Assembly: GCF_001997385.1 (NCBI RefSeq) | Contig: NZ_CP019633.1 | Span: 2,820,001 to 2,852,000 of the forward strand | Length of the DNA stretch: 32,000 nucleotides | Reading direction: 5' to 3' | DNA from: Sedimentisphaera cyanobacteriorum | GTDB taxonomy: Bacteria; Planctomycetota; Phycisphaerae; Sedimentisphaerales; Sedimentisphaeraceae | In this document: positions 5,568-30,569 of the stretch, in pieces | How the letters are laid out: every line of letters begins with the position of its first letter | Numbering within the stretch: position 1 is the stretch's first letter | The notes under the pieces: generated by a model | Databases searched by the model: none | Seen by the model: only the letters and a program-made list of their open reading frames with translations | What the model was told of the DNA's origin: nothing | Position numbers and translations under genes: made by a program

Positions 5568-7409
5568 ATGGGAAATGACCTGGAATATCTTAAGGGTTGT
5601 ATGAGGCCGGAGCAGTATGAGAAGCTGGCGGCTTTGAACAACTCAAAATTAAACGAGTTCATCGCAGATTCCGTACAGCTTTGTACACCTGATGATGTAT
5701 ATCTCTGCGACGGCTCAAAAAACGAATACGATACAATTATGGCAGGAATGGTTAACGAAGGTCTTGCCACAGACCTCAAAGCACGTGAAAACTGCTTCCA
5801 TTTCCGTTCAGACCCGTCAGATGTTGCGCGCGTTGAAGGACGTACCTACATCGCTTGCGAAAATGAATCTGATGCCGGCCCAACTAACAACTGGATCTAC
5901 CCGGACAAGCTCAAAGGTACAATGAGAGATCTCTACAGCGGCTGCATGAAAGGCCGTACTCTCTACGTTATTCCTTTCTCTATGGGCCCGATTGGCTCTC
6001 CGATATCTAAGATTGGTTTCGAAATCACAGACAGCGGCTACGTTGTTTGCAATATGCACATTATGACAAGAGTTGGCGATAAAGTTCTCGAGGCCCTCGG
6101 ACAGGGCGACTTCGTTCCCTGCCTGCACTCTGTCGGCAAGCCGCTTGCTGAAGGCGAAAGCGATAACGGCATGTGGCCTTGCGCTCCTGTTGAGAAGAAA
6201 TACATTTCACACTTTACAGAAGAACAGAAGATCTGGTCGTTCGGCTCAGGCTATGGCGGAAACGCACTTCTCGGAAAGAAATGCCTTGCCCTGAGGATTG
6301 CCTCAGTTATGGCTAAGAAAGAAGGCTGGATGGCTGAGCATATGCTTATCCTCCGCCTAACAAATCCGGAAGGAAAGAAATTCCACATCGCTGCTGCATT
6401 CCCGAGTGCTTGCGGAAAAACAAACCTCGCAATGCTTCAGTCAACAGTAGAAGGCTGGAAGGTTGAATGCGTGGGCGATGATATTGCTTGGATGAAGATG
6501 GACGATAACGGCCAGCTTCGCGCAATCAATCCTGAGTCCGGCTTCTTCGGCGTAGCACCAGGAACAAACAGCAAAACCAACCCGATGGCTGTTAAGTCCT
6601 GCGAAAAGAATTCAATCTTCACCAACTGCGTTGTTACAGACGACAGCGATGTATGGTGGGAAGACGGCGACGGCGAATGCAAGCACGGCATCGACTGGAA
6701 AGGCAGAGAATGGACTCCTGAATCAGGCGAGAAGGGTGCACACCCGAACGCTCGTTTCACAGCTCCAGCGGCTCAGTGCCCAAATGTCTGTCCAGACTGG
6801 GAAGACCCTGCTGGCGTTCCTATCGATATCTTTATCTTCGGCGGTCGCAGAAGCGAGCTTGTTCCGCTGGTTACAGAAGCTATGGACTGGGATCACGGTG
6901 TTTACATGGGTGCTACAGCAGCATCTGAGAAAACTGCCGCTGCTCTCGATTCTGGCGTGGCTATACGCCGCGACCCATTCGCTATGCTTCCGTTCTGTGC
7001 ATACCACATGGCAGACTACTGGCAGCACTGGTTCGATATGGGCGATAAGCTCGGCGAAAATGCTCCGAAGATCTTCTATGTGAACTGGTTCCAGAAGAAC
7101 GAAAAGGGCAAATTCATCTGGCCTGGATTCGGCGAAAACAGCCGCGTTCTCAAGTGGATGTGTGAGCGTGTTGACGGCAAGGCCGGCGCTTATGACACTG
7201 CTATCGGCAAGATGCCTAAGAAGGAAGACCTCGATCTCAACGGCATCGATCTTACCGATGAAGAGATGGACAAGATCCTCAGTGTAGATACTGAAGGCTG
7301 GAAGAAAGAACTGCCTATCGTGAGAGAGTTCTTCGAAACTATGGGCGATAAACTTCCTGACCGTATGGTCGCTCAGGTTGACCGCCTCGAACAGCGTCTC
7401 AAGAGCTAA
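5568..7409 (+). CDS. pckG: Phosphoenolpyruvate carboxykinase (GTP)
   Basis: GTP-PEPCK signatures are present: FPSACGKTNLAML (kinase-1a/P-loop), GDDIAWMKMDDNGQLRAINPE, HPNARFTAPAAQCP, NWFQKNEKGKFIWPGFGEN. Start chosen at ATG 5568 (MGNDLEYLKG...), preceded by AAGGA. The track start at 5517 is a GTG that adds 17 unlikely residues. Confidence 0.95.
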   Translation: MGNDLEYLKGCMRPEQYEKLAALNNSKLNEFIADSVQLCTPDDVYLCDGSKNEYDTIMAGMVNEGLATDLKARENCFHFRSDPSDVARVEGRTYIACENESDAGPTNNWIYPDKLKGTMRDLYSGCMKGRTLYVIPFSMGPIGSPISKIGFEITDSGYVVCNMHIMTRVGDKVLEALGQGDFVPCLHSVGKPLAEGESDNGMWPCAPVEKKYISHFTEEQKIWSFGSGYGGNALLGKKCLALRIASVMAKKEGWMAEHMLILRLTNPEGKKFHIAAAFPSACGKTNLAMLQSTVEGWKVECVGDDIAWMKMDDNGQLRAINPESGFFGVAPGTNSKTNPMAVKSCEKNSIFTNCVVTDDSDVWWEDGDGECKHGIDWKGREWTPESGEKGAHPNARFTAPAAQCPNVCPDWEDPAGVPIDIFIFGGRRSELVPLVTEAMDWDHGVYMGATAASEKTAAALDSGVAIRRDPFAMLPFCAYHMADYWQHWFDMGDKLGENAPKIFYVNWFQKNEKGKFIWPGFGENSRVLKWMCERVDGKAGAYDTAIGKMPKKEDLDLNGIDLTDEEMDKILSVDTEGWKKELPIVREFFETMGDKLPDRMVAQVDRLEQRLKS

Positions 7410-7433
7410 GCTATAAAACTGCTTACAAATAAT

Positions 7434-7466
7434 AAGGCCGGTTCTTAATTGACCCGGCCTTTTTTA
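7434..7466 (+). terminator. Rho-independent terminator after pckG
   Basis: AAGGCCGG (7434-7441) pairs with CCGGCCTT (7454-7461) and runs into a T-run to 7466. Confidence 0.7.
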
Positions 7467-7493
7467 TTGCGCTGCTGAAGATGGATAATATAA

Positions 7494-7521
7494 TTGACCT
7501 GAAAGAATAAGATTATAAAAT
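7494..7521 (+). promoter_or_regulatory. Sigma-70-like promoter candidate for the DUF5060 gene
   Basis: TTGACC (7494-7499), a 16-nt spacer, then TAAAAT (7516-7521). An RBS GAGG sits just upstream of the ATG at 7564. Confidence 0.3.
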
Positions 7522-7563
7522 GGCTGCAAATTCGTAAAATTGTTAAAGTTTTGAGGTTGATTT

Positions 7564-9414
7564 ATGCTGTGTACAGGGAAGTTCAGATTATCTCCAATTG
7601 CTTTTTTGCTTATTTGCGGTTTCGTTTCAGCAAGCCCTGAATTAGCTGGCCCGTTCGACAGCCCCGAAAGGCTTATCCAGTGGCACAAAATCACACTCAC
7701 GCTTGAAGGACCACAGGCAAGCGAAAACGGAACGCCCAATCCTTTCACCGATTACAGAATGTACGTTGTTTTCAAGCACGAAAAAAGCGGGCTGAAATAC
7801 AGGGTGCCCGGGTATTTTGCTGCAGACGGAGACTCCGCAAACTCCTCAGCACAGAACGGTAATAAATGGTGTGCGCACCTGTGTCCGGATAAGCACGGTA
7901 AATGGACATACGAGATTTCATTCCGCAAGGGGAAAAATGCAGCGGTTTCGGAAAAACTGGAAGCTGGCAAACCTCTTGCCCCTTATCACGGAATTTCGGG
8001 AAGATTCAAAGTAGTTCCGTCGGATAAATCTGGCAGAGATTTCCGCGGTAAAGGCCGGCTTGAGTATGTGGGCAAAACATTTCTCAAGTTTGCAGGCTCA
8101 GGAGAATACTTCATCAAACAGGGCACAGACGCTCCCGAAAACTTTCTTGCATACGAAGATTTCGATGGCAATTTCAAAACAGACGGCCGGAAGGATCATT
8201 TGGTAAAAAGCTGGTCTGCCCATGCAAAAGATTGGGACTCGGGCGATCCGTACTGGCAGGACAAAAAGGGAACTGAAATAATCGGAGCGATAAACTATCT
8301 GGCAGGCGAAGGGCTAAACGCATTTTCATTTATTCCGATGAATATCAAAGGCGACGACAGAAACGTTTTTCCATACACCGATTACAACGAACGGTTCAGA
8401 ATGGACTGCTCAAAGCTTGCACAATGGGAGATAGTATTCGAATATGCCGATAAAAAGGGGATGTTCCTGCACTTTAAAACGCAGGAAACAGAGAATGAGC
8501 TGCTCCTTGACGGCGGCGATTTAGGCAAGCAGCGAAAGCTCTACTACCGCGAGCTTATAGCCAGATTCAGCCACCATCTGGCCATCAACTGGAATCTCGG
8601 CGAAGAGGTAAACAATGCTTCCACAAGCCAGAAAAAGAGCTGGGCAGAATACTTCTTCCAGAACGACCCGTACCATCATCACATCGTAATTCATAATATG
8701 GGAAATCCGCACCACGACCTTATGGGAGAAGGTTCGAGGCTTACGGGGATGTCCGTACAAACTAACAAGCCAGATTTCAGAAATGTTTACCCTCGAGTGA
8801 AGAGCTATATACAGAAGGCAAAGAAGGCAGGGAAGGTTTGGGCTGTTGCCTGCGATGAGCCTGGAGATGCCCAGCATGCCTTAAGGCCGGATAATGACGC
8901 GGGCAATTCGCACGATGATGCAAGGCGGAATGCGATTTGGGGCACGTTTATGGCCGGCGGCTGGGGCAATGAATGGTACTTCGGCTACAAACACGCACAT
9001 TCAGACCTCACCTGCGAGGATTTTCGCAGCAGAGACGCCTTTTGGAACTGCTGCCGGATTGCACTCGATTTTTTCAAAGGCGAAAACCGCTCAGGCCGAA
9101 TGGCTCTGCCGGTTGAGAATATGCAGTGCAGGGAGGATTTAGTTTCAAAGCCAAACAGATGCCTTTACGGTAAAGATAATGAAGGGAGAAACTGTCTTGT
9201 CGTGCAGGCATTAACTGAAAAAGAATTTGCAGTAAAAGCGCCGAGTGAAAAACTCTATAAAGCAGGCTGGTTGAACTCTAAAACCGGTGAATGGAAAATA
9301 CTCAGCGATATTGAGAAACATAAAGGCGGGATGCTCAAATTCAAATCTCCTTGGGGCATAGACGGGATCCTGCTTCTTTACGATTGGAGCCGCCGATTCC
9401 CTCAGAAGGAATGA
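7564..9414 (+). CDS. DUF5060-domain protein with a GH5/cellulase-like (DUF4038-type) TIM-barrel and a C-terminal beta-sandwich; secreted putative glycoside hydrolase
   Basis: N-terminal hydrophobic signal. The DUF5060-like block is ITLTLEGPQASENGTPNPFTDYRMYVVFKHEKSGLKYRVPGYFAADGD...NKWCAHLCPDKHGKWTYEISF. It is followed by a barrel-like region: GLNAFSFIPMN, GMFLHFKTQETENE, AINWNLGEE. Confidence 0.75.
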   Translation: MLCTGKFRLSPIAFLLICGFVSASPELAGPFDSPERLIQWHKITLTLEGPQASENGTPNPFTDYRMYVVFKHEKSGLKYRVPGYFAADGDSANSSAQNGNKWCAHLCPDKHGKWTYEISFRKGKNAAVSEKLEAGKPLAPYHGISGRFKVVPSDKSGRDFRGKGRLEYVGKTFLKFAGSGEYFIKQGTDAPENFLAYEDFDGNFKTDGRKDHLVKSWSAHAKDWDSGDPYWQDKKGTEIIGAINYLAGEGLNAFSFIPMNIKGDDRNVFPYTDYNERFRMDCSKLAQWEIVFEYADKKGMFLHFKTQETENELLLDGGDLGKQRKLYYRELIARFSHHLAINWNLGEEVNNASTSQKKSWAEYFFQNDPYHHHIVIHNMGNPHHDLMGEGSRLTGMSVQTNKPDFRNVYPRVKSYIQKAKKAGKVWAVACDEPGDAQHALRPDNDAGNSHDDARRNAIWGTFMAGGWGNEWYFGYKHAHSDLTCEDFRSRDAFWNCCRIALDFFKGENRSGRMALPVENMQCREDLVSKPNRCLYGKDNEGRNCLVVQALTEKEFAVKAPSEKLYKAGWLNSKTGEWKILSDIEKHKGGMLKFKSPWGIDGILLLYDWSRRFPQKE

Positions 9415-9986: not shown

Positions 9987-10066
9987 GGTTTTTGAAAAAA
10001 CGCAAAAATTAAATTTTCGAAATTCATTAATACGCTTTCAAACAATTGGCAAAAACGGAGTTTGTA

Positions 10067-12253
10067 ATGACAAATTTTGAAAGCTATGCAGAAGCACAGC
10101 AATCCTCACAAAAGTCAACCCTAAACGTTACCGAAAGGGTAACGGAAGCAGCAGGGCTGTTCCCTGATAAAACAGCAGTGAGCGACGAGAATCATTCGAT
10201 TATATTTTCAGAGCTGATATTGATTTCAGATGTCCTTGCTGAAAAGCTCCTTGCAAAAAACATCCAGCTTGAGCAGAAAGTTGGGATAAGCTGCGGAAAA
10301 AGCGTTGAGGCTGTCGTCTCTGCGTTTGCTGTGATGAAGGTTGGTGCGGCTTATGTGCCCCTTGATGCAGATTATCCGGACGAAAGGCTTATATACATAG
10401 CAGAAAATTCCTGTATGAATATTATATTCTGCGTTAAAGGCAATGCGCCAATGTGGGCTGAGGGGTTTGAAGTTATAGAGATAGATATTGAACAAATCCT
10501 CAAATCCGAACCTCCTGAAGAGCATATATCATTTAACTGTTCCCCAACAAGCCTTGCCTATTCAATGTACACCTCCGGCTCGACAGGCACACCCAAAGGT
10601 GTGGAAATAGAGCACAGAAATCTTAATCAGGAGATAGACTGGAATATAGAATTCCACAAACTTACCAGCAAAGACGTGGCAAGTCTTGTTTCGAGCTTCA
10701 GCTTTGATGTTTCAGTGTCTGAGATATGGAGCACTTTATCAGTTGGGGCGAGGCTTTGCATTGCTCCGCCTTCAGCAGTTTACGTGCCTCAAAATATGAT
10801 CGACTGGATGTGCCGAAAAGGTATAACCGTTGGCCTCGTTGGAACTCCCGTAGCAGAAAAGATTATTCGTATGCAGTGGCCTGATGAGTGTTCGCTTCGT
10901 ACTATGCGAACCATGGGCGACAGGCTCAGAGTAAGGCCTCTGCCGAATCTGCCGTTCAATCTGTACAATGAGTACGGCCCTACAGAATGCACAGTTACTG
11001 TTACAGCAGGGCTGGTCAGTTCGGAGGACGACGGCAAATACCCTCACATCGGAAGCGAAGTGGGCGACTGCGTGATACATATACTTGATGATGAGTTAAA
11101 CCCCGTAAAAGAAGGCGAAGAAGGCGAGCTCTGCATCAGCGGGGACTGCGTTGCAAGAGGGTATGCAGGTATGCCGGAGAAAACGGCCGAGGTATTCGTT
11201 CCCGACCCAATCATAAAGGGCAATCGGATGTACCGAACCGGCGATGTTGCAAAAAGACGGCCGGACGGGAATATCGATTATGTGGGAAGGCGGGATTTGC
11301 AGGTTCAGATCCGTGGGTTCAGGGTGGAGCTCAGCGAGATTGAAAAATTTGTGCTCGACAGCGAAAATGTAAACTCTGCTGCTGTGGTTGCTTCCGAAGA
11401 AGAGGATGGGATCAGGCTTTACTGCTTTGCTGAGCCGAAGGCAAAGCCGTTCAGCGTTGAATCACTTACTGATTTTCTCGCCTCAAAACTGCCCACCTAC
11501 ATGAGACCGAGCGGGTATTACGTTTTGGAGGAGATGCCGCTGAATGTAAACGGAAAAATTGACAGAAAGAAACTCTTCGCAGATGTTGTAGAAAACCGAA
11601 TTGAGGCGCATTCCAGAACAGATCAGATTGTAATGCCGCGAAACCCAATGGAAGAAGTGCTTTGGGAAACGTGGAAAAAAATCCTCCGAAGAGAAGACTT
11701 CGGAATATATGAAAACTTCTTCGACCTCGGCGGACATTCATTGATGGCTATTAAGATGGAAACGCTCCTAAGCAAACGCGGGCTTGCGCTCGACTTTGAA
11801 AAGGTGATTAAATATCCGGTGATCGCACAGCTGGCCGCCTTTCTGGAATTCAAGGTTGACGGGGCAGAAAATTCCGACGAAAAGTGCATTGTGTCGCTCA
11901 ACAAAGGCGAGAAAGGCAGGCCGCCGATTTATTTCCTGCATTCCACCAGCGGCGACATTCTGGCGTATGCAAATATAGTGCACGAACTCGGAGAAGACCA
12001 GCCCTGCTTCGGTTTTCAGTCTATTGGGCTTTGGCATATTGATCAGGCAGACAAAACAATCGAGCAGATGGCTGCCAGATATGTTAAGCTGCTCAATGAT
12101 ATCCAGCCGGAAGGAAAGTTTGCGCTTGTGGGGTGGTGCTTCGGCGGCTGGATCGCCTACGAGATGGCAAGAATATTCAAGAAGCAAGGCAGAAACGTGA
12201 GCATTTTAGCCCTCATAGACGCTCCCGCAAAACTTGCCGGCGGGAAAAAATGA
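10067..12253 (+). CDS. Stand-alone NRPS-like enzyme: adenylation domain, thiolation (PCP) domain, and the N-terminal two-thirds of a thioesterase domain (nucleophile and Asp)
   Basis: A-domain cores: MKVGAAYVPLD (A2), YTSGSTGTPKGV (A3), FDVSVSE (A4), NEYGPTE (A5), GELCISGDCVARGY (A6), YRTGD (A7), GRRDLQVQIRGFRVELSEIE (A8), NGKIDRKKL (A10). Carrier motif is FFDLGGHSLMAI (Ser codon 11738-11740). TE motif is GWCFGG (Cys codon 12137-12139), with Asp 27 residues later in LIDAP (12218-12220). No condensation domain is present. ATG 10067 with GGAG at 10056-10059 is preferred over the TTG at 10046. Confidence 0.9.
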   Translation: MTNFESYAEAQQSSQKSTLNVTERVTEAAGLFPDKTAVSDENHSIIFSELILISDVLAEKLLAKNIQLEQKVGISCGKSVEAVVSAFAVMKVGAAYVPLDADYPDERLIYIAENSCMNIIFCVKGNAPMWAEGFEVIEIDIEQILKSEPPEEHISFNCSPTSLAYSMYTSGSTGTPKGVEIEHRNLNQEIDWNIEFHKLTSKDVASLVSSFSFDVSVSEIWSTLSVGARLCIAPPSAVYVPQNMIDWMCRKGITVGLVGTPVAEKIIRMQWPDECSLRTMRTMGDRLRVRPLPNLPFNLYNEYGPTECTVTVTAGLVSSEDDGKYPHIGSEVGDCVIHILDDELNPVKEGEEGELCISGDCVARGYAGMPEKTAEVFVPDPIIKGNRMYRTGDVAKRRPDGNIDYVGRRDLQVQIRGFRVELSEIEKFVLDSENVNSAAVVASEEEDGIRLYCFAEPKAKPFSVESLTDFLASKLPTYMRPSGYYVLEEMPLNVNGKIDRKKLFADVVENRIEAHSRTDQIVMPRNPMEEVLWETWKKILRREDFGIYENFFDLGGHSLMAIKMETLLSKRGLALDFEKVIKYPVIAQLAAFLEFKVDGAENSDEKCIVSLNKGEKGRPPIYFLHSTSGDILAYANIVHELGEDQPCFGFQSIGLWHIDQADKTIEQMAARYVKLLNDIQPEGKFALVGWCFGGWIAYEMARIFKKQGRNVSILALIDAPAKLAGGKK

Positions 12254-12672
12254 GGCAGCATCTTACGGTTATAAAAAATCTTATCGCCCTCGGGCCAGCC
12301 GAGATGAGCAAAGAAATCATAGAGAGACTGAAAACTAAGGAATCAGACCTTGCAGATGATGTGATTGGCGCCCATTTCAACGAGCAGGACGAAGAATTCA
12401 AAAACAGATATGTTTCAAATCGAGCGGAAGTGTACGACTGTAATCTATCCGCCGCTTATGAGTATAAATCTGGAACTTATAAAGGCCAAGCCGTGCTGTT
12501 TAAGGCTATGGGCAGCGAACTTTGGAAACTCAGAGGCCCGAAACTCGGCTGGGAATTTGTGGTTGATGATTTGAAGCTCGAAGCTATACCGGGCGAACAT
12601 AAAGACCTGATGAAGGAAAATACGGAAATCGCTGTAAGACTCAGGAAAATGGTTGATCAGATTAAGGGCTGA
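12250..12672 (+). CDS. C-terminal third of the thioesterase domain (lid region plus catalytic His) as a separate ORF in the -1 frame
   Basis: ATG 12250-12252 overlaps the upstream TGA 12251-12253 (ATGA), immediately after the A6 run at 12245-12250. It contains the IPGEHKDLM His motif typical of type I TE domains (His codon 12598-12600). The portion of track ORF 12133..12672 upstream of 12250 is out-of-frame overlap with the first ORF. Confidence 0.7.
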   Translation: MRQHLTVIKNLIALGPAEMSKEIIERLKTKESDLADDVIGAHFNEQDEEFKNRYVSNRAEVYDCNLSAAYEYKSGTYKGQAVLFKAMGSELWKLRGPKLGWEFVVDDLKLEAIPGEHKDLMKENTEIAVRLRKMVDQIKG

Positions 12673-12705
12673 GAGCTCCTTCACGCAGCGTCCGAGGCCG
12701 GGTGA

Positions 12706-12872
12706 GTATGCACGGTTTGGCTCCTTATGCGAAAAAAGCCATCGCCACACAGCGGAGCAGCTCTTAGCTGCCCGCCAAAATCCTAATGGAAAAAGCAGCG
12801 TGGGTGAGAAGCGTACGCCTTGCGGCGTTACGCTTTGCGTCCCAGCATCTTCGCAAATCCAGTACTTCTGAT
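12706..12872. repeat. Element E, copy A (161-nt core, GTATGC on the left side only)
   Basis: GTATGC is at 12706-12711. The core at 12712-12872 is nearly identical to copies B and C except for a ~5-nt insertion near the right end. The left flank 12673-12705 is an RHS remnant (reverse strand LGRCVKEL) that abuts the TE stop codon. The right flank is unrelated sequence. Confidence 0.8.
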
Positions 12873-12933
12873 TTCGAATAAACTGCTATGGCTTAAAACC
12901 ACTAACAGTGTTTATTTTGATTCTCATTTGGTT

Positions 12934-13743
12934 TTATCTCAGCAATTTGCGGTTCGCTTCTTCTACCAGCAGTTTCATTTGCTTTATTGCAATCTCGTTT
13001 AGTCTTTCAAGTCTTTCATTTTGCGGCAGGCGTTCAGATATAAACAGAGCATTAAGATTTTCTAAATTTGCCAAACATACCAGCTGAATCACATTAGCAT
13101 TATCACGGATATCTCCCTTCTCATCCGGGTTGGCTTTCTGCCATTGTGCGGAGGTCATTCCGAAAAGGGCAACATTTAAAACATCTGCTTCGCTTGCATA
13201 TAGAAAAGAGGCCTGTTTCTTATCAATCTGCTGCGGTATCAGGTGCTCCTTAATCGCATCAGTATGTATGCGGTAGTTGATTTTAGTTAGGCTTCGTTTA
13301 ACCGACCAATCCAGCTCTTGCGTCTGGTTTTCTTTGAGCCGCTGAAATTCCTTCAGCAGATAAAATTTGAATTCTACCGACACCCAGGACGCAAATTCTA
13401 ACGCTATATCTGCGTGTGCAAATGTGCCGCCATATCTGCCCGGTTTGGACTGAAGGCCTATCGCATTTGTTGAATCTATCCATTTCTTGGGCGAAAGCAC
13501 GAAATGATTATAGCCGGCCTGATTCCTAAACTGGTCGAATTCGACCAGTTTGAAGTTTTGATTGTGGATTCGCTCCCACAGCCCAAGAAGCTCAATCGTA
13601 TTTTTGCTCCTCATCCAGTTTTTAATGATATCGGCTGGCGAGTCGGGGTTTTTGTATTTTGCAATATCTGTTATCGAGATGTAGTTCTCACGGTCAACAT
13701 TGTAAAGCATTATTTCACTGCCGGATACATTGATTTTCTTCAT
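12934..13743 (-). CDS. KilA-N domain-containing protein (DNA-binding, phage/mobile-element associated family)
   Basis: The translation closely matches my memory of the ~270-aa KilA-N family: ISITDIAKYKNPDSPADIIKNWMRSKNTIELLGLWE, GRYGGTFAHADIALEFASWVSVEFKFYLLKEFQRLKE, INYRIHTDAIKEHLIP. ATG is preceded by GGAGA. The gene is visibly AT-richer than the flanking genes. Confidence 0.85.
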   Translation of the reverse strand: MKKINVSGSEIMLYNVDRENYISITDIAKYKNPDSPADIIKNWMRSKNTIELLGLWERIHNQNFKLVEFDQFRNQAGYNHFVLSPKKWIDSTNAIGLQSKPGRYGGTFAHADIALEFASWVSVEFKFYLLKEFQRLKENQTQELDWSVKRSLTKINYRIHTDAIKEHLIPQQIDKKQASFLYASEADVLNVALFGMTSAQWQKANPDEKGDIRDNANVIQLVCLANLENLNALFISERLPQNERLERLNEIAIKQMKLLVEEANRKLLR

Positions 13744-13850
13744 AAATCATTCTCCATGCTTTTATTTTAAGCACGCTGAAACCTGCTATGAACCTCGTTC
13801 AAAAACCCGCTCAATATATAATATCGAAAAACAAAACGCAATGCAAAAAC

Positions 13851-14205
13851 ACCGCAATCAGCTCGCAAAACCCATTGCCGTAAACGTATTCATCCCCGCC
13901 GGCGAGCGTTTCGCCCGAATCGGTCGTGGTGAGCTACTTCACGCATCGTCCGAGGCCGGGTGAGTATGCACGGTTTGGCTCCTTATGCGAAAAAAGCCAT
14001 CGCCACACAGCGGAGCAGCTCTTAGCTGCCCGCCATAATCCTAATGGAAAAAGCAGCGTGGGTGAGAAGCGTACGCCTTGCGGCGTTACGCTGTGCGTCC
14101 CAGCATCTTCGCAAATCCGACTGATGTATGCCGGCGAGCCGGCCAAGCTTCCCACAATCCTGCGCCCCAACGCATCATATTTGTACTGAATCACTCATCC
14201 TCCAG
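13851..14205 (-). pseudogene. Degenerate RHS/YD-repeat fragment interrupted by element E copy B
   Basis: The reverse strand reads SGG*VIQYKYDALGRRIVGSLAGSPAY-[E]-SPGLGRCVK*LTTTDSGETLAGGDEYVYGNGFCELIAV. It has two in-frame stops and no start. It is homologous to the uninterrupted repeat at 16229-16390. Confidence 0.65.
13964..14131. repeat. Element E, copy B (156-nt core flanked by GTATGC direct repeats)
   Basis: GTATGC is at 13964-13969 and 14126-14131. The core is 13970-14125. Hairpins lie at 14069-14091 (GCGTACGCC-TTGC-GGCGtTACGC, a GCAA loop on the reverse strand) and 14012-14034. The terminal stem is CGGTTTG (13971-13977) with CAAAtCCG (14112-14119). Confidence 0.85.
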
Positions 14206-14412
14206 AAGATGCATTTTACTCTCTTTTATACATATCTCAACAGCTGCAATTTCATAATGAATATTAACAGCTGCTCCAATTTTTTCTTTCTTTACTCCAT
14301 TGCCTGCCGGGTTTCCAAATAAGTTCAAAACTTTCATTTTCTGACAAAGCTCTGAGCACCGGAAGAATAAAATCTTTTATTTTGTCTGCTGCTGATGGAA
14401 AAGATATCTCTT

Positions 14413-15204
14413 TTAGGCTATTTTTTGAGATAAAGCATCCCACTGGCTCTGTTTCAATTTGTCTTCATAGAATTCTCTGGTAAAAGATGTAGGCAGTTCT
14501 TCGGGGATTGCTGTACCTCTTCGCCTAAATGTGTTTTGAATCGCCTGAGCTAACAGTTTGCCGTCGAATTCAAATTTTCCGGCAAGCTGATACACATCGT
14601 AAAAATCTTTCATACGGCTGTTCGCAAACCCCAGAGTTACCATTGCTTCAATCTTTTCAGCTACTGCCAGCTCATACGAGTATGTCCTTAGCTTTGGTGC
14701 CGGCATATTAAGTATTGCAGGGAAAGCGGCCTGCTTTTCAGGCGGATAAACCTCATCACCAAACCCAATGTCTATCTGCATAAATTCTCCCGTACGCCCT
14801 ATTCTGTATTCAAGCTTAATCCTTACGCCGTCATACATATTATCTTCCCGAATTGCCTGCCCTCTCACAGATTCCGCTTTATATGTGATTCCGTCCTGCA
14901 CATCAGTTTCGATCCGGCAAATATTTCTGAAAACCTCCTCCAGCCGGGAAACATCAGGATTGCCAAACCCAAGCAAATCAAGATCTCTCGTTGGCCGGTA
15001 AGGATTATTCCCCCATACCCGAAAAAGCTGCGCTCCCTTGAGAACAAAATCGTTGGCATATTGAGAATTGCTCAATCGATAAAGAAAACGCTCTATTGCA
15101 TAATTTGTCAGCGTAAGGCCGCGATCTTCCCTTTGCATTTGCGAATAATTTTTTAGACGCTGTAAAATGGAATCAGCTATGTTTTTCTTTTCCCGATTGC
15201 TCAT
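14413..15204 (-). CDS. abiEii: AbiEii/AbiGii-family nucleotidyltransferase toxin (DUF1814), type IV toxin-antitoxin / abortive infection
   Basis: Typical AbiEii N-terminus: SILQRLKNYSQMQREDRGLTLTNYAIERFLYRLSNSQYANDFVLKGAQLF...RPTRDLDLLGFG. The ATG at 15204 overlaps the upstream stop as ATGA. Confidence 0.9.
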   Translation of the reverse strand: MSNREKKNIADSILQRLKNYSQMQREDRGLTLTNYAIERFLYRLSNSQYANDFVLKGAQLFRVWGNNPYRPTRDLDLLGFGNPDVSRLEEVFRNICRIETDVQDGITYKAESVRGQAIREDNMYDGVRIKLEYRIGRTGEFMQIDIGFGDEVYPPEKQAAFPAILNMPAPKLRTYSYELAVAEKIEAMVTLGFANSRMKDFYDVYQLAGKFEFDGKLLAQAIQNTFRRRGTAIPEELPTSFTREFYEDKLKQSQWDALSQKIA

Positions 15205-15809
15205 AATGCAGTAATGCTTTCAAGATATGGCTGAATCACATTGCTCACCCTGCACACTTTGGCGTATTTCCAAAGCTCATCCATTGTAAAATGCTTTTCC
15301 CGCCAGCCTTCTCTAAGGGCTTCCAGAGCTGTATCCAGCCCAATCTTGTTGCGATATTTAAAACAATCCGCCACCGTCTTTGCCGGCGAATAAACTCGCA
15401 CCTTAAGCTGATCTATCCGTTTCTCCTGTATTCCTTCGGTAAATGCCCTTTTCGAAAACCGCACATATCTCACCTTTGCAGAAGCTTTAATTTCGGGTTT
15501 GCGGGAACGATTTTCTATCGCAATCCAGACCTCAAATGGATTCTGTGTTGTAAATCCGTGAAGACGCAGGGCAGAAAGAAGGCAAATTACCCCTTTAGGC
15601 ACCTGTTTCGAAGCCTCAGCAATGCTCTGCATCGGCGAGTAATCATTGTTGGGCAGACTGTAGAGGCCGCGGGAAACCCTCTCCACAGTTCCTTGTACCG
15701 TAAGCTTTCGAAGATACTCCTTCGAGATGCCAAGCTCAACGATTTCTCCTGTTTTGAGCATTCCATACTGTCTGAGATGTTCAATTAGTTTTTGAGCCTT
15801 TATTCCCAT
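15201..15809 (-). CDS. abiEi: AbiEi-family antitoxin / transcriptional regulator (winged-helix N-terminus)
   Basis: Motifs: MLKTGEIVELGISKEYLRKLTVQGTVERVSRGLYSL, ICLLSALRLHGFTTQNPFEVWIAI, VYSPAKTVADCFKYRNKIGLDTALEALRE, IQPYLESI. Start chosen at ATG 15809 (MGIKAQKL...). The track start at 15860 lies inside the promoter palindrome. Confidence 0.85.
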   Translation of the reverse strand: MGIKAQKLIEHLRQYGMLKTGEIVELGISKEYLRKLTVQGTVERVSRGLYSLPNNDYSPMQSIAEASKQVPKGVICLLSALRLHGFTTQNPFEVWIAIENRSRKPEIKASAKVRYVRFSKRAFTEGIQEKRIDQLKVRVYSPAKTVADCFKYRNKIGLDTALEALREGWREKHFTMDELWKYAKVCRVSNVIQPYLESITAL

Positions 15810-15821
15810 TTGCAATACCTT

Positions 15822-15869
15822 GTTGACTAAATGTCCATATATATTAACATATATCAACACTTAGTCAAC
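15822..15869 (-). promoter_or_regulatory. Promoter embedded in a 9-bp inverted repeat; candidate AbiEi operator
   Basis: GTTGACTAA (15822-15830) and TTAGTCAAC (15861-15869) are perfect inverted repeats. On the reverse strand they frame TTGACT, 16 nt, then TAATAT, directly upstream of the abiEi ATG. Confidence 0.5.
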
Positions 15870-16545
15870 TTGATTTTGACATCCCCGCCGCGAGCGTTTC
15901 GCCCGAATCGGTCGTGGTGAGCTCCTTCACGCAGCGGCCGAGGCCGGGCGAGTATGCGCGATTTGGCTCCTTTTGCGAAAAAAGCCATCGCCACACAGCG
16001 GAGCAGCTCTTAGCTGCCCGCCAAAATCCTAATGGAAAAAGCAGCGTGGGTGAGAAGCGTACGCCTTGCGGCGTTACGCTGTGCGTCCCAGCATCTTCGC
16101 AAATCCGGCTTATGTATGCTGGCGAGCCGGCCAAGCATACCACACTGCCCAGCGCGTCGGTGAGGGCGTATTCCACGCCGCCAGAAGCATCGCAAACCGA
16201 AATCAGCTCAGCGAAACCATTGCCGTAAACGTATTCATCCCCGGCGGCGAGCGTTTCGCCCGAATCGGTGGTGGTTAGCTCCTTCACGCAGCGGCCGAGC
16301 GGGTCGTACAGGCAGAACGTTTCCTCGCCGCCCGAGCTTCTCACAACCCTGCGCCCCAACGCATGGTATTTGTATTCGATCACTTGTCCTCCCGATTCAA
16401 CTGAGACCAACGCACCTCCGGCAGAATATTCATACTTATTCCCGCCGTCATAAATCATATTGCCTGCATTATCATACTGGATTTCGGAATCGCTTTCAAG
16501 AGAATTCAACTCGGCGATTTCTGAAACGAGAGGGTTTTTAGCTGA
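15865..16545 (-). pseudogene. Orphan RHS/YD-repeat fragment (no N-terminus, no toxin tip) carrying element E copy C in frame
   Basis: The reverse strand reads YDNAGNMIYDGGNKYEYSAGG...VIEYKYHALGRRVVRSSGGEETFCLYDPLGRCVKELTTTDSGETLAAGDEYVYGNGFAELISV...YALTDALGSVVCLAGSPAY-[E]-SPGLGRCVKELTTTDSGETLAAG, then MSKSS*. The frame opens right after a stop near 16546 and has no credible start. The LGRCVKELTTTDSGETLAAG segment occurs twice. Confidence 0.65.
15952..16119. repeat. Element E, copy C (156-nt core flanked by GTATGC direct repeats)
   Basis: GTATGC is at 15952-15957 and 16114-16119. The core 15958-16113 is exactly 156 nt and differs from copy B by about six substitutions by eye. Confidence 0.85.
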
Positions 16546-16661
16546 TTAGATTTTCAGCCACTGAGAAACGCTAAGAAGCACTAAGGGGATAATTTTAGAC
16601 AGAATCTTTTTAGTTCCAGGCAATGATAAGGGGAAAGTTTTTCTCCTGCAGCTGCCGCTGC

Positions 16662-16698
16662 CTCTCCGCCTGCGGCGGACAGGCTCAATGTTAAACAT
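16662..16698. repeat. 37-nt direct repeat, left copy (contains the TCCGCC-TGC-GGCGGA hairpin)
   Basis: CTCTCCGCCTGCGGCGGACAGGCTCAATGTTAAACAT recurs at 17107-17144 with one extra T. Confidence 0.8.
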
Positions 16699-16703
16699 CC
16701 CCC

Positions 16704-16831
16704 GTACTACAGCGGAGTCCGCCTGCGGCGGACCCGCTAGGCATTCTTTTAGAATAGATTTTTCGCTTAACGCCGGCTCTTCACGTTTCGCTATCCTAGC
16801 GGGTCCGCCACGGCGAACACCGCTGTACGAC
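16704..16831. repeat. R2 hairpin element: ~37-nt imperfect inverted repeats around a ~53-nt spacer (MITE/REP-like)
   Basis: The 5' arm is GTACTACAGCGGAGTCCGCCTGCGGCGGACCCGCTAGG (16704-16741). The 3' arm is CCTAGCGGGTCCGCCACGGCGAACACCGCTGTACGAC (16795-16831). The spacer contains CTCTTCACGTTTCGCT, which is shared with the element at 30455-30569. Confidence 0.75.
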
Positions 16832-17106
16832 GCTGCTTTATTAAGCAGCGAACCGCTGGCTCAGTCCGTAAATGCTGCGGCCAGCCTATAGTAGATACTG
16901 GCTGTCCGCTTATTTCACTGCCTGCGGCGGGACGGAATAAGTGGGCAGCAAACAGAGCGGAAACGGAGGCGAGATTTTTTAGACGGGATTTATAGGAGTA
17001 ACATGAAAAATATTTGGTACTGAAAAGTTGGATAGAAGTTTTTTCAGCCGCTGATCTGCTCTGATTTTTCACTAATATATTATATCTTCTCCGATAACTC
17101 CGCTAA

Positions 17107-17144
17107 CTCTCCGCCTGCGGCGGACAGGCTCAATGTTTAACATT
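17107..17144. repeat. 37-nt direct repeat, right copy
   Basis: CTCTCCGCCTGCGGCGGACAGGCTCAATGTTTAACAT matches 16662-16698. Confidence 0.8.
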
Positions 17145-17287
17145 CCTTTTAAATCGGTGGTTAAATTATTCTTAATTGAGGCGGTCTTGCTCATCACCCG
17201 CCGGAGAGCTGCCCCGCAATTTGATATTCTCCGCCAATGCGGGGGCTGAAGTTTTTACACAGAGATATCGGAGGAAGCGGAGGGGAG

Positions 17288-17705: not shown

Positions 17706-18632
17706 CTAAGCCCTCCGGCTCTCAAGGAAGGCCTGCATATCTCGAGGGATTTTTGCAGAGATCGCCCGTTTCTTCCCGCACGGAAGGATTAGCTCAAGTT
17801 TTTTGCTGTGCAGGGCGGTTCTTTTGAGTTCGGGGGACTCAAGAAGCCGGCCGCCGTAGAGCGGATCGTTTGCAAGCGGGCAGCCTATATGTTCAAGGTG
17901 AACGCGAATCTGATGCGTTCGGCCAGTGAATATCTCGATTTCGACAAGAGCAAAATCGCCCATCTGTTCAACAACTCTGTAAGCTGTTTTTGCGTCCCTT
18001 CCGTCCGGACGCACCGCCTGCTTGTGGATATTCTCATTTGGGTGGTCTCCGAGCGGGACGTCTATAATGCCCTCATCCTCAGCGAAATTCGAGCTTACAA
18101 TCGCATTGTAAATCTTGTGCGTTGTTCGCTTTTGGAACTGCTCGCAAAGGAAGGCGTTTGCTCGGGCGTGCTTGCTGAAGACAACAGCTCCTGAGGTGTC
18201 CTTGTCGAGCCTGTGCACAACATCAGGCGAGAATCTCCCTGCGGCATAATGATAAAGCCCGTTGAGAAGCGTGCCGTTCGGGTTGCCCCTGCCCGGATGA
18301 ACGATAGCGCCCGGGGCCTTGTTCACCGCTACCACATCCTCATCCTCATAAATGACCTCAAGCTCCATCGCCTCAGGTTCGATCTCTCGGGAGGGGAGGG
18401 TGAGCTTTATTAAATCGCCCGAACAGAGCTTGCGGGAGGGCTTGGCCTTTACGCCGTTCACGAGAATCTCCTGCTGACGGATTACCCGCTGCATCTTCTG
18501 CCGGCTGAGCTGCCCGAACCTGCTGCACAGGTAGCTGTCGAGACGCACGTCCTGCTTGCCTCCGCCGACTCTCATCTCAAGCTCTTCGCCGGGGATAAAC
18601 GGGATCTGTCTTTCTGATTCTGCCTGTGCCAA
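17706..18632 (-). CDS. rluD: RluA-family pseudouridine synthase, RluD-like (S4 domain plus catalytic domain)
   Basis: S4-like N-terminus is VRLDSYLCSRFGQLSRQKMQRVIRQQEILVNG. The catalytic motif is HRLDKDTSGAVVFSK, followed by TGRTHQIRVHL. The listed start at 18632 is TTG. An in-frame ATG at 18578 is an alternative. Confidence 0.85.
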   Translation of the reverse strand: MAQAESERQIPFIPGEELEMRVGGGKQDVRLDSYLCSRFGQLSRQKMQRVIRQQEILVNGVKAKPSRKLCSGDLIKLTLPSREIEPEAMELEVIYEDEDVVAVNKAPGAIVHPGRGNPNGTLLNGLYHYAAGRFSPDVVHRLDKDTSGAVVFSKHARANAFLCEQFQKRTTHKIYNAIVSSNFAEDEGIIDVPLGDHPNENIHKQAVRPDGRDAKTAYRVVEQMGDFALVEIEIFTGRTHQIRVHLEHIGCPLANDPLYGGRLLESPELKRTALHSKKLELILPCGKKRAISAKIPRDMQAFLESRRA

Positions 18633-30397: not shown

Positions 30398-30426
30398 AGT
30401 ACCGCCCGCTGTGGCGGACCCGCTAA
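30398..30426. repeat. Solo arm related to the R2 inverted repeats
   Basis: AGTACCGCCCGCTGTGGCGGACCCGCTAA resembles the reverse complement of the 3' arm at 16795-16831. Confidence 0.6.
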
Positions 30427-30454
30427 TTATTCATTGCGAAATAATTTCACGCAC

Positions 30455-30569
30455 CACAGCGGAGCGACGCAAGTCGCCCGCTAAGCTTACGCTCCGAAAA
30501 GATTTCCCGTGTGCCGTCGGTTCTTCACGTTTCGCTTCGTTAGCGGGGCACTTGCGTGCCTCCGCTGTG
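30455..30569. repeat. R2 hairpin element, second copy (different arm sequence, same architecture and spacer motif)
   Basis: The 5' arm is CACAGCGGAGCGACGCAAGTCGCCCGCTAAGC (30455-30486). The 3' arm is CGTTAGCGGGGCACTTGCGTGCCTCCGCTGTG (30538-30569). The spacer contains GTTCTTCACGTTTCGCT. Confidence 0.75.

What the first reader, a model, noticed from the sequence alone, without database searches (positions are those of the whole stretch)
12673..16545. RHS-fragment/element-delimited cassette array carrying AbiE and KilA-N instead of toxin tips
**Seen.** Reading the reverse strand, the order is:
1. orphan YD-repeat fragment with element E (16545-15881)
2. a 1.7-kb cassette with a complete abiEi-abiEii operon and its own promoter (15880-14206)
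3. degenerate YD fragment with E (14205-13851)
4. a 1.0-kb cassette with a KilA-N gene (13850-12873)
5. E plus an RHS remnant (12872-12673)

Other points seen:
- The segment LGRCVKELTTTDSGETLAAG is repeated at each junction.
- The cassettes enter the repeat at different points, after ...LAAG in one case and after ...ELIAV in the other.
- Both cassettes are visibly AT-richer than their surroundings.
- There is no full-length rhs gene, no PxxxxDPxGL toxin demarcation, and no recombinase in the window.

**Known.** rhs loci accumulate orphan C-terminal tips plus immunity genes by recombination between core repeats. AbiE is an abortive-infection TA system. KilA-N proteins are common in mobile and defence contexts.

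**Inference.** Repeated RHS/E segments here may act as recombination substrates that capture or shuffle defence-type cargo. That use of RHS repeats is not the classical toxin-tip replacement, so this could be an undescribed cassette-exchange hot spot.
Basis: partly seen in the sequence, partly recalled or inferred. Interest (0 to 1): 0.7.

Follow-up and report, generated by a model that had tools for sequence, protein, structure and literature searches.

The report
Shuffled rhs-fragment array carrying defence genes
A planctomycete chromosome holds a decayed rhs toxin "orphan" array whose repeated rhs gene ends now separate an AbiE toxin-antitoxin operon and a KilA-N candidate phage-defence gene, and relatives show these modules being lost, reordered and exchanged; this is an unusual variant of a known kind of locus, not a new kind.

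Summary
On the minus strand of this Sedimentisphaera cyanobacteriorum window, three direct copies of an rhs core 3' fragment (56-57% GC) bracket an abiEi-abiEii cassette and a KilA-N cassette (41-42% GC).

Corrections:
- "Element E" is not a foreign element. Its ends (GSPAYIS / NRAYSPGLGR) are the canonical C-terminal end of an rhs core. Only a 139-nt middle piece (M) is aberrant and unexplained.
- abiEii carries a -1 frameshift (263 aa, against 313 aa in the orthologue).
- The third copy starts at 12860, not 12872.

Comparative evidence supports the recombination idea. Sister species S. salicampi has a homologous array at a different locus.
- One strain keeps a canonical SPDPLG motif, toxin tip and candidate immunity gene. 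The other strain lacks that module; it is bounded by 139-nt, 99% identical rhs repeats.
- The second strain has an extra two-gene module.
- The order of KilA-N and AbiE is inverted between the species.
- Synonymous divergence of array parts (dS 0.16-0.35) is well below that of seven housekeeping genes (0.68-0.77).

No full-length parent rhs and no recombinase were found.

Verdict: a real rhs orphan (C-terminal displacement) array colonised by defence-type genes. It is a new variant of a known kind, of moderate interest.

The parts
15878..16520 (-). F1: head rhs core 3' fragment. It contains YD repeats 'pre-a-b-c', then the core end GSPAYIS-M-NRAYSPGLGR, then a second copy of segment 'a' (LGRCVKELTTTDSGETLAAG). 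It is annotated as the 214-aa hypothetical protein L21SP3_02237.
   Evidence: Pfam RHS_repeat and TIGR01643 hits. It is 86-88% nt identical to the S. salicampi head fragments, starting at the same base. It is collinear with P0001.
15968..16106 (-). M copy 1: an aberrant 139-nt middle piece of the core end that replaces 106 nt of canonical coding sequence.
   Evidence: It has an 8-nt terminal inverted repeat and predicted hairpins, and differs at 2/139 positions from the other copies.
15813..15878 (-). abiE promoter/operator region: a TTGACT-16-TAATAT promoter-like site and a 33-nt imperfect inverted repeat.
   Evidence: (I1). The palindrome is conserved in S. salicampi.
15201..15809 (-). abiEi antitoxin/regulator gene (202 aa). 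Its stop overlaps the abiEii start (ATGA).
   Evidence: Pfam AbiEi_4; PADLOC AbiEi, E 3e-84. It falls in the same 90% cluster as the S. salicampi proteins.
14413..15204 (-). abiEii nucleotidyltransferase toxin gene, truncated by a -1 frameshift in a T-run. The remainder of the gene continues in another frame to 14264.
   Evidence: Pfam AbiEii, E 8e-45. PADLOC model matched over 2-254 of 299, against 2-298 for the S. salicampi orthologue. The indel is seen in the alignment.
14214..14290 (-). X: linker repeat at the 3' end of the AbiE cassette. It covers the abiEii stop, an RBS-like GGAG and an ATGTATAAAAGAG start.
   Evidence: It is repeated in S. salicampi L005 at 11521-11594 and 12024-12100, where it heads other genes.
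13851..14213 (-). F2: degenerate rhs fragment (pre'-core end with M-a-b) with two in-frame stops. M copy 2 lies at 14118-13980.
   Evidence: The X|F2 junction is identical to the one in S. salicampi L006.
12861..13850 (-). KilA-N cassette. The gene is at 13743-12934 (269 aa), with promoter-like sites upstream.
   Evidence: Pfam KilA-N. PADLOC PDC-S22, E 2e-126, full length. It is 57% identical to proteins of Streptococcus satellite phages. A 107-nt remnant is present in the S. salicampi arrays.
12673..12860 (-). F3: M copy 3 (12860-12722), then NRAYSPGLGRCVKEL. It abuts the stop codon of the convergent NRPS-like gene.

Best explanation
The locus is a decayed rhs 'orphan module' array, the product of C-terminal displacement in a polymorphic-toxin locus, in Sedimentisphaera cyanobacteriorum.

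Short, GC-rich, directly repeated pieces of the 3' end of an rhs core gene remain as pseudogene fragments F1-F3. Between them sit AT-rich, self-contained accessory modules instead of toxin tips and immunity genes: an abiEi-abiEii type IV toxin-antitoxin/abortive-infection operon and a KilA-N (PDC-S22) gene.

The repeated rhs fragments, together with a second linker repeat X, provide homology for recombination. That recombination deletes, duplicates, reorders and, after DNA uptake, imports modules. The array therefore behaves as a small variable island.

**Shown:**
- the repeat anatomy;
- that E is the rhs core end;
- a homologous array in S. salicampi that has a canonical tip;
- strain-level module gain or loss bounded by repeats;
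- inverted module order and a different chromosomal site between species;
- low synonymous divergence of array parts.

**Inferred:**
- that the events were RecA-type homologous recombination plus some microhomology-mediated deletions;
- that modules were transferred between lineages after speciation;
- that the cargo acts in phage defence or in stabilising the array.

The E-'a' junction (..SPGLGR|CVKEL..) is best explained by a deletion between the two LGR-encoding 11-mers (CTCGGCCGCTG), which removed a tip, an immunity gene and the start of the next fragment.
For: **Repeats and gene content.**

**E is the rhs core end.** P0001, from the same genome, reads ..LGSVVCLAGSPAYIS[36 aa with YDAYGN..PFGFAG]NRAYSPGLGRWLSPDP and matches TIGR03696. 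The S. salicampi L006 gene 5985-7205 has the same layout, followed by an SPDPLG motif and a tip of about 215 aa, and then by a 238-aa ORF with hydrophobic stretches.

**A homologous array in S. salicampi.** It lies between a sigma54 activator gene and rmuC.
- The AbiE cassette with both junctions is 91-92% nt identical (window 15908-14137 = L006 9900-11674).
- A KilA-N remnant (window 13160-13054) sits upstream of AbiE there.

**Strain differences in S. salicampi.**
- L005 lacks L006 ~6219-7985 (core end + tip + 238-aa gene). This stretch is bounded by 139-nt repeats that are 99.3% identical.
- L005 has an extra 1.65-kb module of two genes, inserted exactly at the X|F junction.

**Different chromosomal site.** Downstream of rluD, S. 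salicampi has no array; synteny ends at window 17682.

**Synonymous divergence.**

| Sequence | dS |
|---|---|
| gltB, gltD, queA, abcF, chrA x2, rluD | 0.68-0.77 |
| abiEi | 0.16-0.18 |
| abiEii | 0.35 |
| rhs fragment | 0.34 |

**GC contrast.**

**Literature.** rhs orphan arrays and C-terminal displacement are established (PMC3150448 and others listed; the listing was seen, the papers were not read).
Against: - No full-length rhs gene was found in the window or in the held S. salicampi loci.
- In an exhaustive search of 1.84 billion representatives, only orphans of 63-158 aa are more than 50% identical to the fragment. Long RHS proteins are at most 39% identical. The array therefore cannot currently work as a toxin-switching system.
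- The window array has no DPxGL motif, no toxin tip and no immunity gene.
- Both AbiE junctions are identical in the two species, so repeated independent capture of cargo is not shown.
- abiEii is frameshifted and F2 carries stop codons. This fits decay as well as it fits active use.
- The aberrant piece M is not explained by this model.
- Only three genomes could be compared. The rest of the window's own genome could not be read.
Confidence: 0.7

Rival explanations
1. Static graveyard. An old rhs locus decayed, and AbiE and KilA-N were inserted by unrelated events such as prophage or satellite remnants. The repeats are leftovers, and there is no continuing exchange or role as recombination substrates.
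For: - The AbiE junctions are identical in both species.
- abiEii is frameshifted.
- F2 has in-frame stops.
- S. salicampi keeps only a remnant of KilA-N.
- The closest AbiEii homologues outside the genus (64-66% identity) are not next to RHS fragments.
- KilA-N relatives are carried by phage satellites.
Against: - Two ~99% identical S. salicampi strains differ by two whole modules, exactly at the repeats.
- Module order and chromosomal site differ between species.
- Array dS is 2-4.5 times below background.
- The rhs fragment has dN/dS of 0.31, so it has not been decaying neutrally since the species split.
Confidence: 0.17
2. E, or its middle piece M, is an independent structured or mobile element: a MITE-like insertion, a recombination site analogous to attC, or a small RNA gene. 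It targets the rhs core end and defines the cassette boundaries.
For: - M differs at 2/139 positions between copies, against 9/74 in the adjoining rhs nucleotides (Fisher p = 0.0015).
- An 8-nt terminal inverted repeat (TTTGCGAA/TTCGCAAA) lies within 6 nt of both ends; 10 of 20,000 shuffles reach this.
- Fold z-score is -2.7 / -3.4, against +0.4 for the canonical segment.
- The left end of copy 3 coincides with the left end of M.
Against: - No Rfam family matches.
- No copy exists elsewhere in the window or in about 110 kb of related loci.
- Its 23-25-mers are absent from three public collections.
- The S. salicampi arrays are just as modular without M.
- Cassette junctions fall at varying distances from M and lie in rhs sequence.
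- The window has no recombinase or transposase.
- M replaces 106 nt rather than simply inserting, and it has marginal similarity to the replaced segment (p ~0.045).
- With three near-identical copies, no covariation test is possible.
Confidence: 0.1
3. Assembly artefact. Reads from a single rhs gene were mis-joined into an apparent repeat array.
For: Repeats of 190-260 nt can confuse assemblers. Two nearby genes carry homopolymer-type frameshifts.
Against: - The copies differ from one another, each has a unique junction, and flank identity is 83-94%.
- The same a|AbiE and X|F junctions occur in two independent S. salicampi assemblies.
- The record is a single 2.95-Mb contig.
Confidence: 0.02

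Closest known systems
rhs orphan arrays formed by C-terminal displacement (Enterobacteriaceae, Serratia, bee-gut symbionts; PMC3150448, PMC7043789 and PMC5727410 as listed)
   Same: - Direct repeats of the GC-rich 3' end of the rhs core separate AT-rich modules.
- Module content varies between strains by recombination in the core repeats.
- One S. salicampi strain has the canonical core end, DPLG motif, tip and a candidate immunity gene.
   Different: - No full-length main rhs gene was found upstream or elsewhere.
- In the window, the modules are stand-alone defence/TA genes with their own promoters, not tips fused in frame to the core fragment.
- The core end carries an aberrant 139-nt piece and joins back to an upstream YD repeat instead of to DPxGL.
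- The host is a planctomycete (Phycisphaerae).
Variable 'genomic armoury' hotspots and GMT islands that co-locate antibacterial effectors with anti-phage systems (bioRxiv 10.64898/2026.08.01.741415, read; 10.1101/2023.03.28.534373, listed)
   Same: Offensive toxin modules and anti-phage or TA modules share one strain-variable locus and are shuffled.
   Different: Those hotspots are defined by conserved flanking genes or by mobile-element proteins. Here the boundaries are rhs core fragments, and no mobility gene is present.
AbiE type IV toxin-antitoxin / abortive infection system
   Same: - An AbiEi and AbiEii gene pair with a 4-nt overlap.
- A palindromic promoter region.
- Strong PADLOC and Pfam matches.
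   Different: The toxin gene is truncated by a frameshift in this genome. Activity was not tested.
Chromosomal integron cassette arrays with TA cassettes
   Same: A direct-repeat-delimited array of promoter-containing accessory cassettes. A TA module could stabilise the array against repeat-mediated deletion (inference from general knowledge).
   Different: There is no IntI and no attC-type site. The junctions are imprecise and lie in rhs coding sequence.

Membership tests
rhs orphan / C-terminal displacement array | Directly repeated fragments of the 3' end of an rhs (YD-repeat) core | tested here: met
rhs orphan / C-terminal displacement array | Core end with a PxxxxDPxGL demarcation followed by a variable toxin tip | tested here: not met
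   Absent from all three window copies; LGR is followed by CVKEL.. instead. It is present in the homologous array of S. salicampi L006 (..LGRWLSPDPLG + tip) and in P0001 of the same genome.
rhs orphan / C-terminal displacement array | Cognate immunity gene after each tip | tested here: not met
   None in the window. There is only a candidate 238-aa ORF after the S. salicampi tip, with no family assignment.
rhs orphan / C-terminal displacement array | Full-length main rhs gene sharing the core sequence | tested here: not met
   None in the window or in loci L005/L006. The only relatives above 50% identity among 1.84 billion representatives are orphans of 63-158 aa. The rest of the genome could not be read.
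rhs orphan / C-terminal displacement array | Strain-variable module content bounded by the core repeats | tested here: met
   S. salicampi L005 against L006; module order between species.
AbiE type IV TA system | AbiEi regulator plus AbiEii nucleotidyltransferase in one operon | tested here: met
   abiEii is truncated by a frameshift.
AbiE type IV TA system | Toxicity, neutralisation and phage protection | not testable with these tools
   Needs an experiment.
PADLOC PDC-S22 (KilA-N candidate defence gene) | Full-length match to the family model | tested here: met
   E 2.2e-126, residues 2-266 against model positions 5-271 of 281. The defence function of the family is itself only predicted.
Integron cassette array | IntI integrase and attC sites with R''/R' core sites at the cassette ends | tested here: not met
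   No integrase in the window. The junctions are variable and lie within rhs sequence.
MITE (for the piece M) | Terminal inverted repeats, target-site duplication and many dispersed copies | tested here: inconclusive
   An 8-nt terminal inverted repeat is present. There is no clear target-site duplication. Copies are found only inside rhs core ends in the sequence available. A genome-wide copy count could not be made.
Known structured RNA family (Rfam) | Covariance-model match | tested here: not met

The most novel reading that the evidence does not exclude
In Sedimentisphaera, which has no detectable parent rhs gene, short rhs core-end fragments have been exapted as portable homology arms. 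They let stand-alone defence genes (AbiE, PDC-S22/KilA-N, DUF3800 and others) move between loci and between species by homologous recombination alone. This would amount to a recombinase-free cassette system. The 139-nt palindrome-ended piece M would then be a new structured element, either recombination-stimulating or RNA-encoding, that spreads among these fragments.
Probability: 0.12. Interest if true: 0.7.

Novelty: new variant of a known kind. Interest (0 to 1): 0.42.

Why it matters
rhs orphan arrays are usually viewed only as stores of silent toxin tips and immunity genes. This array shows the same repeat architecture holding a toxin-antitoxin/abortive-infection operon and a candidate single-gene defence system, in a little-studied phylum. 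There is evidence of module loss, reordering and transfer between species.

If this is general, rhs fragments could mark variable regions where unrecognised defence genes are found. They would also add a recombinase-free route for moving such genes.

The finding also cautions against reading every conserved repeat in such arrays as a separate 'element': most of E is simply the rhs core end.

Tried and rejected
- **Rfam.** Scans at gathering and permissive thresholds found nothing relevant. No tRNA or tmRNA attachment site was found.
- **Exact M 23/25-mers.** No match in genome contigs, metagenome contigs or viral contigs.
- **The search for related loci with the rhs alignment.** No confirmed relatives in genome contigs or metagenome contigs.
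- **Exact look-ups of window proteins and P0001 in the contig index.** All failed. The window's own genome is apparently not readable there, so the second rhs locus (AQQ09696) could not be inspected.
- **DGR idea** (template and variable repeat). Rejected on reading the alignment: differences between the 'a-b' copies are not adenine-specific, and there is no reverse transcriptase.
- **Group II intron domain V or another ribozyme for the GNRA hairpin.** Rejected: no Rfam hit, and the bulge is on the wrong strand (judged from memory of the consensus).
- **Integron.** Rejected: no IntI and no attC.
- **M as a frame-shifted canonical core end.** HMM scans of all three frames gave nothing. DNA similarity to the canonical segment is only marginal (p ~0.045).
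- **nhmmer with the three M copies** against all held loci found no further copy.
- **The AbiE clade in general.** The nearest AbiEii homologues outside the genus are not associated with RHS fragments.

Full report
**Source and setting.** The window is from the chromosome of Sedimentisphaera cyanobacteriorum (Planctomycetota, Phycisphaerae). Its RluD is 100% identical to AQQ10406 on a 2,951,611-bp contig. The cassette genes are AQQ10401 (KilA-N), AQQ10403 (AbiEii), AQQ10404 (AbiEi) and AQQ10405 (RHS fragment). The array lies between rluD (17706-18632, minus strand), followed by about 1 kb of REP-like palindromes, and the stop codon of a convergent, frameshifted NRPS-like A-T-TE gene (10046-12672, plus strand).

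**Observation.**
- The repeat finder gives three direct copies. A 39-nt core occurs exactly three times, against none expected.
- Pfam and PADLOC identify an RHS-repeat ORF, AbiEi, AbiEii and a KilA-N protein.
- The fragments have 56-57% GC, the cassettes 41-42% and the window 48%.
- The window has no DPxGL motif, no long rhs gene and no recombinase.

Three details need correcting.
- The third copy starts at 12860.
- abiEii has lost one T in a T-run. It ends after 263 aa, where the S. salicampi orthologue has 313 aa.
- 'E' needs re-interpretation, as follows.

**What E is.** The only close protein relative of the fragment is P0001 (AQQ09696), a 158-aa RHS core-domain orphan elsewhere in the same genome. 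It reads ..LGSVVCLAGSPAYIS-PVRYDAYGN..PFGFAGM..ICLTP-NRAYSPGLGRWLSPDP.. and matches TIGR03696. The window copies share GSPAYIS and NRAYSPGLGR but differ in two respects.
- (i) The 36-codon middle is replaced by a 139-nt piece, M.
- (ii) LGR is followed by CVKELTTTDSGETLAAG, the sequence that follows YDPLGR one repeat upstream, and not by WLSPDP.

E is therefore the C-terminal end of the rhs core. The E-'a' junction is most simply a deletion between the two LGR-encoding 11-mers that removed a tip, an immunity gene and the start of the next fragment. This step is inferred.

**M remains unexplained.**
- It differs at 2/139 positions between copies, against 9/74 positions (the nine judged synonymous by eye from the alignment) in the adjoining rhs nucleotides (Fisher p = 0.0015).
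- It has an 8-nt terminal inverted repeat, reached by 10 of 20,000 shuffles.
- It folds better than shuffles (z -2.7 / -3.4), whereas the canonical segment does not (z +0.4).
- It has no Rfam match and no copy in any other sequence I could search.
- Its similarity to the segment it replaces is only marginal (p ~0.045).

**Comparative evidence.** The sister species S. salicampi has no array after rluD; synteny ends at window 17682. The AbiEi 90% cluster led to two S. salicampi strains, L005 (CP021023.1) and L006 (NHPQ01000032.1). Both carry a homologous array between a sigma54-activator gene and rmuC.

| Genome | Module order |
|---|---|
| L006 | head rhs fragment with canonical core end, SPDPLG and a ~215-aa tip (406-aa ORF); 238-aa ORF with hydrophobic stretches; rhs fragment ending ..CVKEL; 107-nt KilA-N remnant; DUF3800 gene; 174-aa gene; 30 nt of 'a'; abiEi-abiEii-X; rhs fragment; rmuC |
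| L005 | as L006, but without the core end + tip + 238-aa module, and with an extra 147-aa + 379-aa module |

- These maps rest.
- The module missing from L005 is bounded in L006 by 139-nt repeats that are 99.3% identical.
- The extra L005 module is inserted exactly at the X|fragment junction. It contains a second copy of X.
- The AbiE cassette with both of its junctions is conserved between species (window 15908-14137 = L006 9900-11674, 91%).
- KilA-N lies upstream of AbiE in S. salicampi and downstream in the window.

**Age of the array.** Nei-Gojobori dS between the two species is 0.68-0.77 for gltB, gltD, queA, abcF, both chrA genes and rluD. It is 0.16-0.18 for abiEi, 0.35 for abiEii and 0.34 for the rhs fragment, whose dN/dS is 0.31. 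The array parts are therefore younger than the species split. Together with the different chromosomal site, this points to transfer between lineages, or from a common donor, after speciation.

**Cargo.**
- The KilA-N protein matches PADLOC candidate PDC-S22 over its full length (E 2e-126). It is 57% identical to proteins of Streptococcus satellite phages and Staphylococcus phage EW, so it is a widely mobile single gene.
- AbiE matches strongly.
- The closest AbiEii homologues outside the genus (64-66% identity) are not beside RHS fragments. The association with rhs is therefore lineage-specific.

**Parent rhs.** An exhaustive phmmer search of 1.84 billion representatives found more than 50% identity only to orphans of 63-158 aa. 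Long RHS proteins are at most 39% identical. No full-length parent was seen, but the rest of the two genomes could not be scanned.

**Interpretation.** The best-supported reading (0.7) is a decayed rhs orphan array colonised by defence/TA modules and reshuffled through its direct repeats.

Rivals:
- a static graveyard (0.17);
- E/M as an independent cassette-delimiting element (0.10);
- an assembly artefact (0.02).

**What is known.** Co-location of antibacterial effectors with anti-phage systems in variable hotspots is already described, and rhs orphan arrays are well established. A search combining Rhs, orphan and AbiE returned four papers, none of which appeared from its title and abstract to describe this arrangement. 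I rate this a new variant of a known kind, of moderate interest.

Noticed in passing
window 10046-12672 (+): An NRPS-like adenylation-thiolation-thioesterase gene is split into two overlapping ORFs (10046-12253 and 12133-12672) by a frameshift within the thioesterase domain. The array abuts its stop codon directly.
   Followed up: partly
window 16650-17150 and ~30400-30560; L006 ~5800; L007 14270-14540: A family of REP-like palindromic intergenic elements (core GTCCGCCGCAGGCGGA) fills the ~1 kb between rluD and the array. It also occurs in S. salicampi intergenic regions.
   Followed up: partly
window 14214-14290; L005 11521-11594 and 12024-12100: A ~75-nt linker 'X' (abiEii stop, GGAG, ATGTATAAAAGAG start) is a second recombination repeat. 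In S. salicampi it supplies the MY(K/N)(R/K)E N-terminus of a 147-aa hydrophobic ORF, a 379-aa ORF and an rhs-fragment ORF.
   Followed up: partly
window 12722-12860, 13980-14118, 15968-16106: The 139-nt piece M has an 8-nt terminal inverted repeat and three hairpins. It is far more conserved between copies than the rhs sequence around it, and it is absent from S. salicampi arrays and from all collections searched.
   Followed up: partly
window 17682 / L001 4181: Synteny with S. salicampi breaks immediately after the rluD stop codon. S. salicampi continues with a sigma54 activator and a GSIII glutamine synthetase, whereas the window continues with REP-like elements, the array, and NRPS/PEPCK/CAZyme genes.
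   Followed up: partly
L005 14930 onwards vs L006 13282 onwards: The two S. salicampi strains also differ downstream of rmuC: sulfatase and Laminin_G_3 genes in one, acetyltransferase, lysine 2,3-aminomutase and valS in the other. The whole neighbourhood is a variable region.
   Followed up: no
same genome, outside the window (AQQ09696; AQQ09789-09790): A second rhs orphan (P0001) with a canonical core end lies about 700 genes from the window array. It is about 94 genes from the orthologues of the genes that flank the S. salicampi array, so rhs fragments occupy at least two loci in this genome.
   Followed up: partly
L006 8246-9691 / L005 8246-9691: The S. salicampi arrays carry a DUF3800 gene and a 174-aa gene with no PADLOC match. 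They sit between a KilA-N remnant and the AbiE cassette and are possible uncharacterised defence cargo.
   Followed up: no
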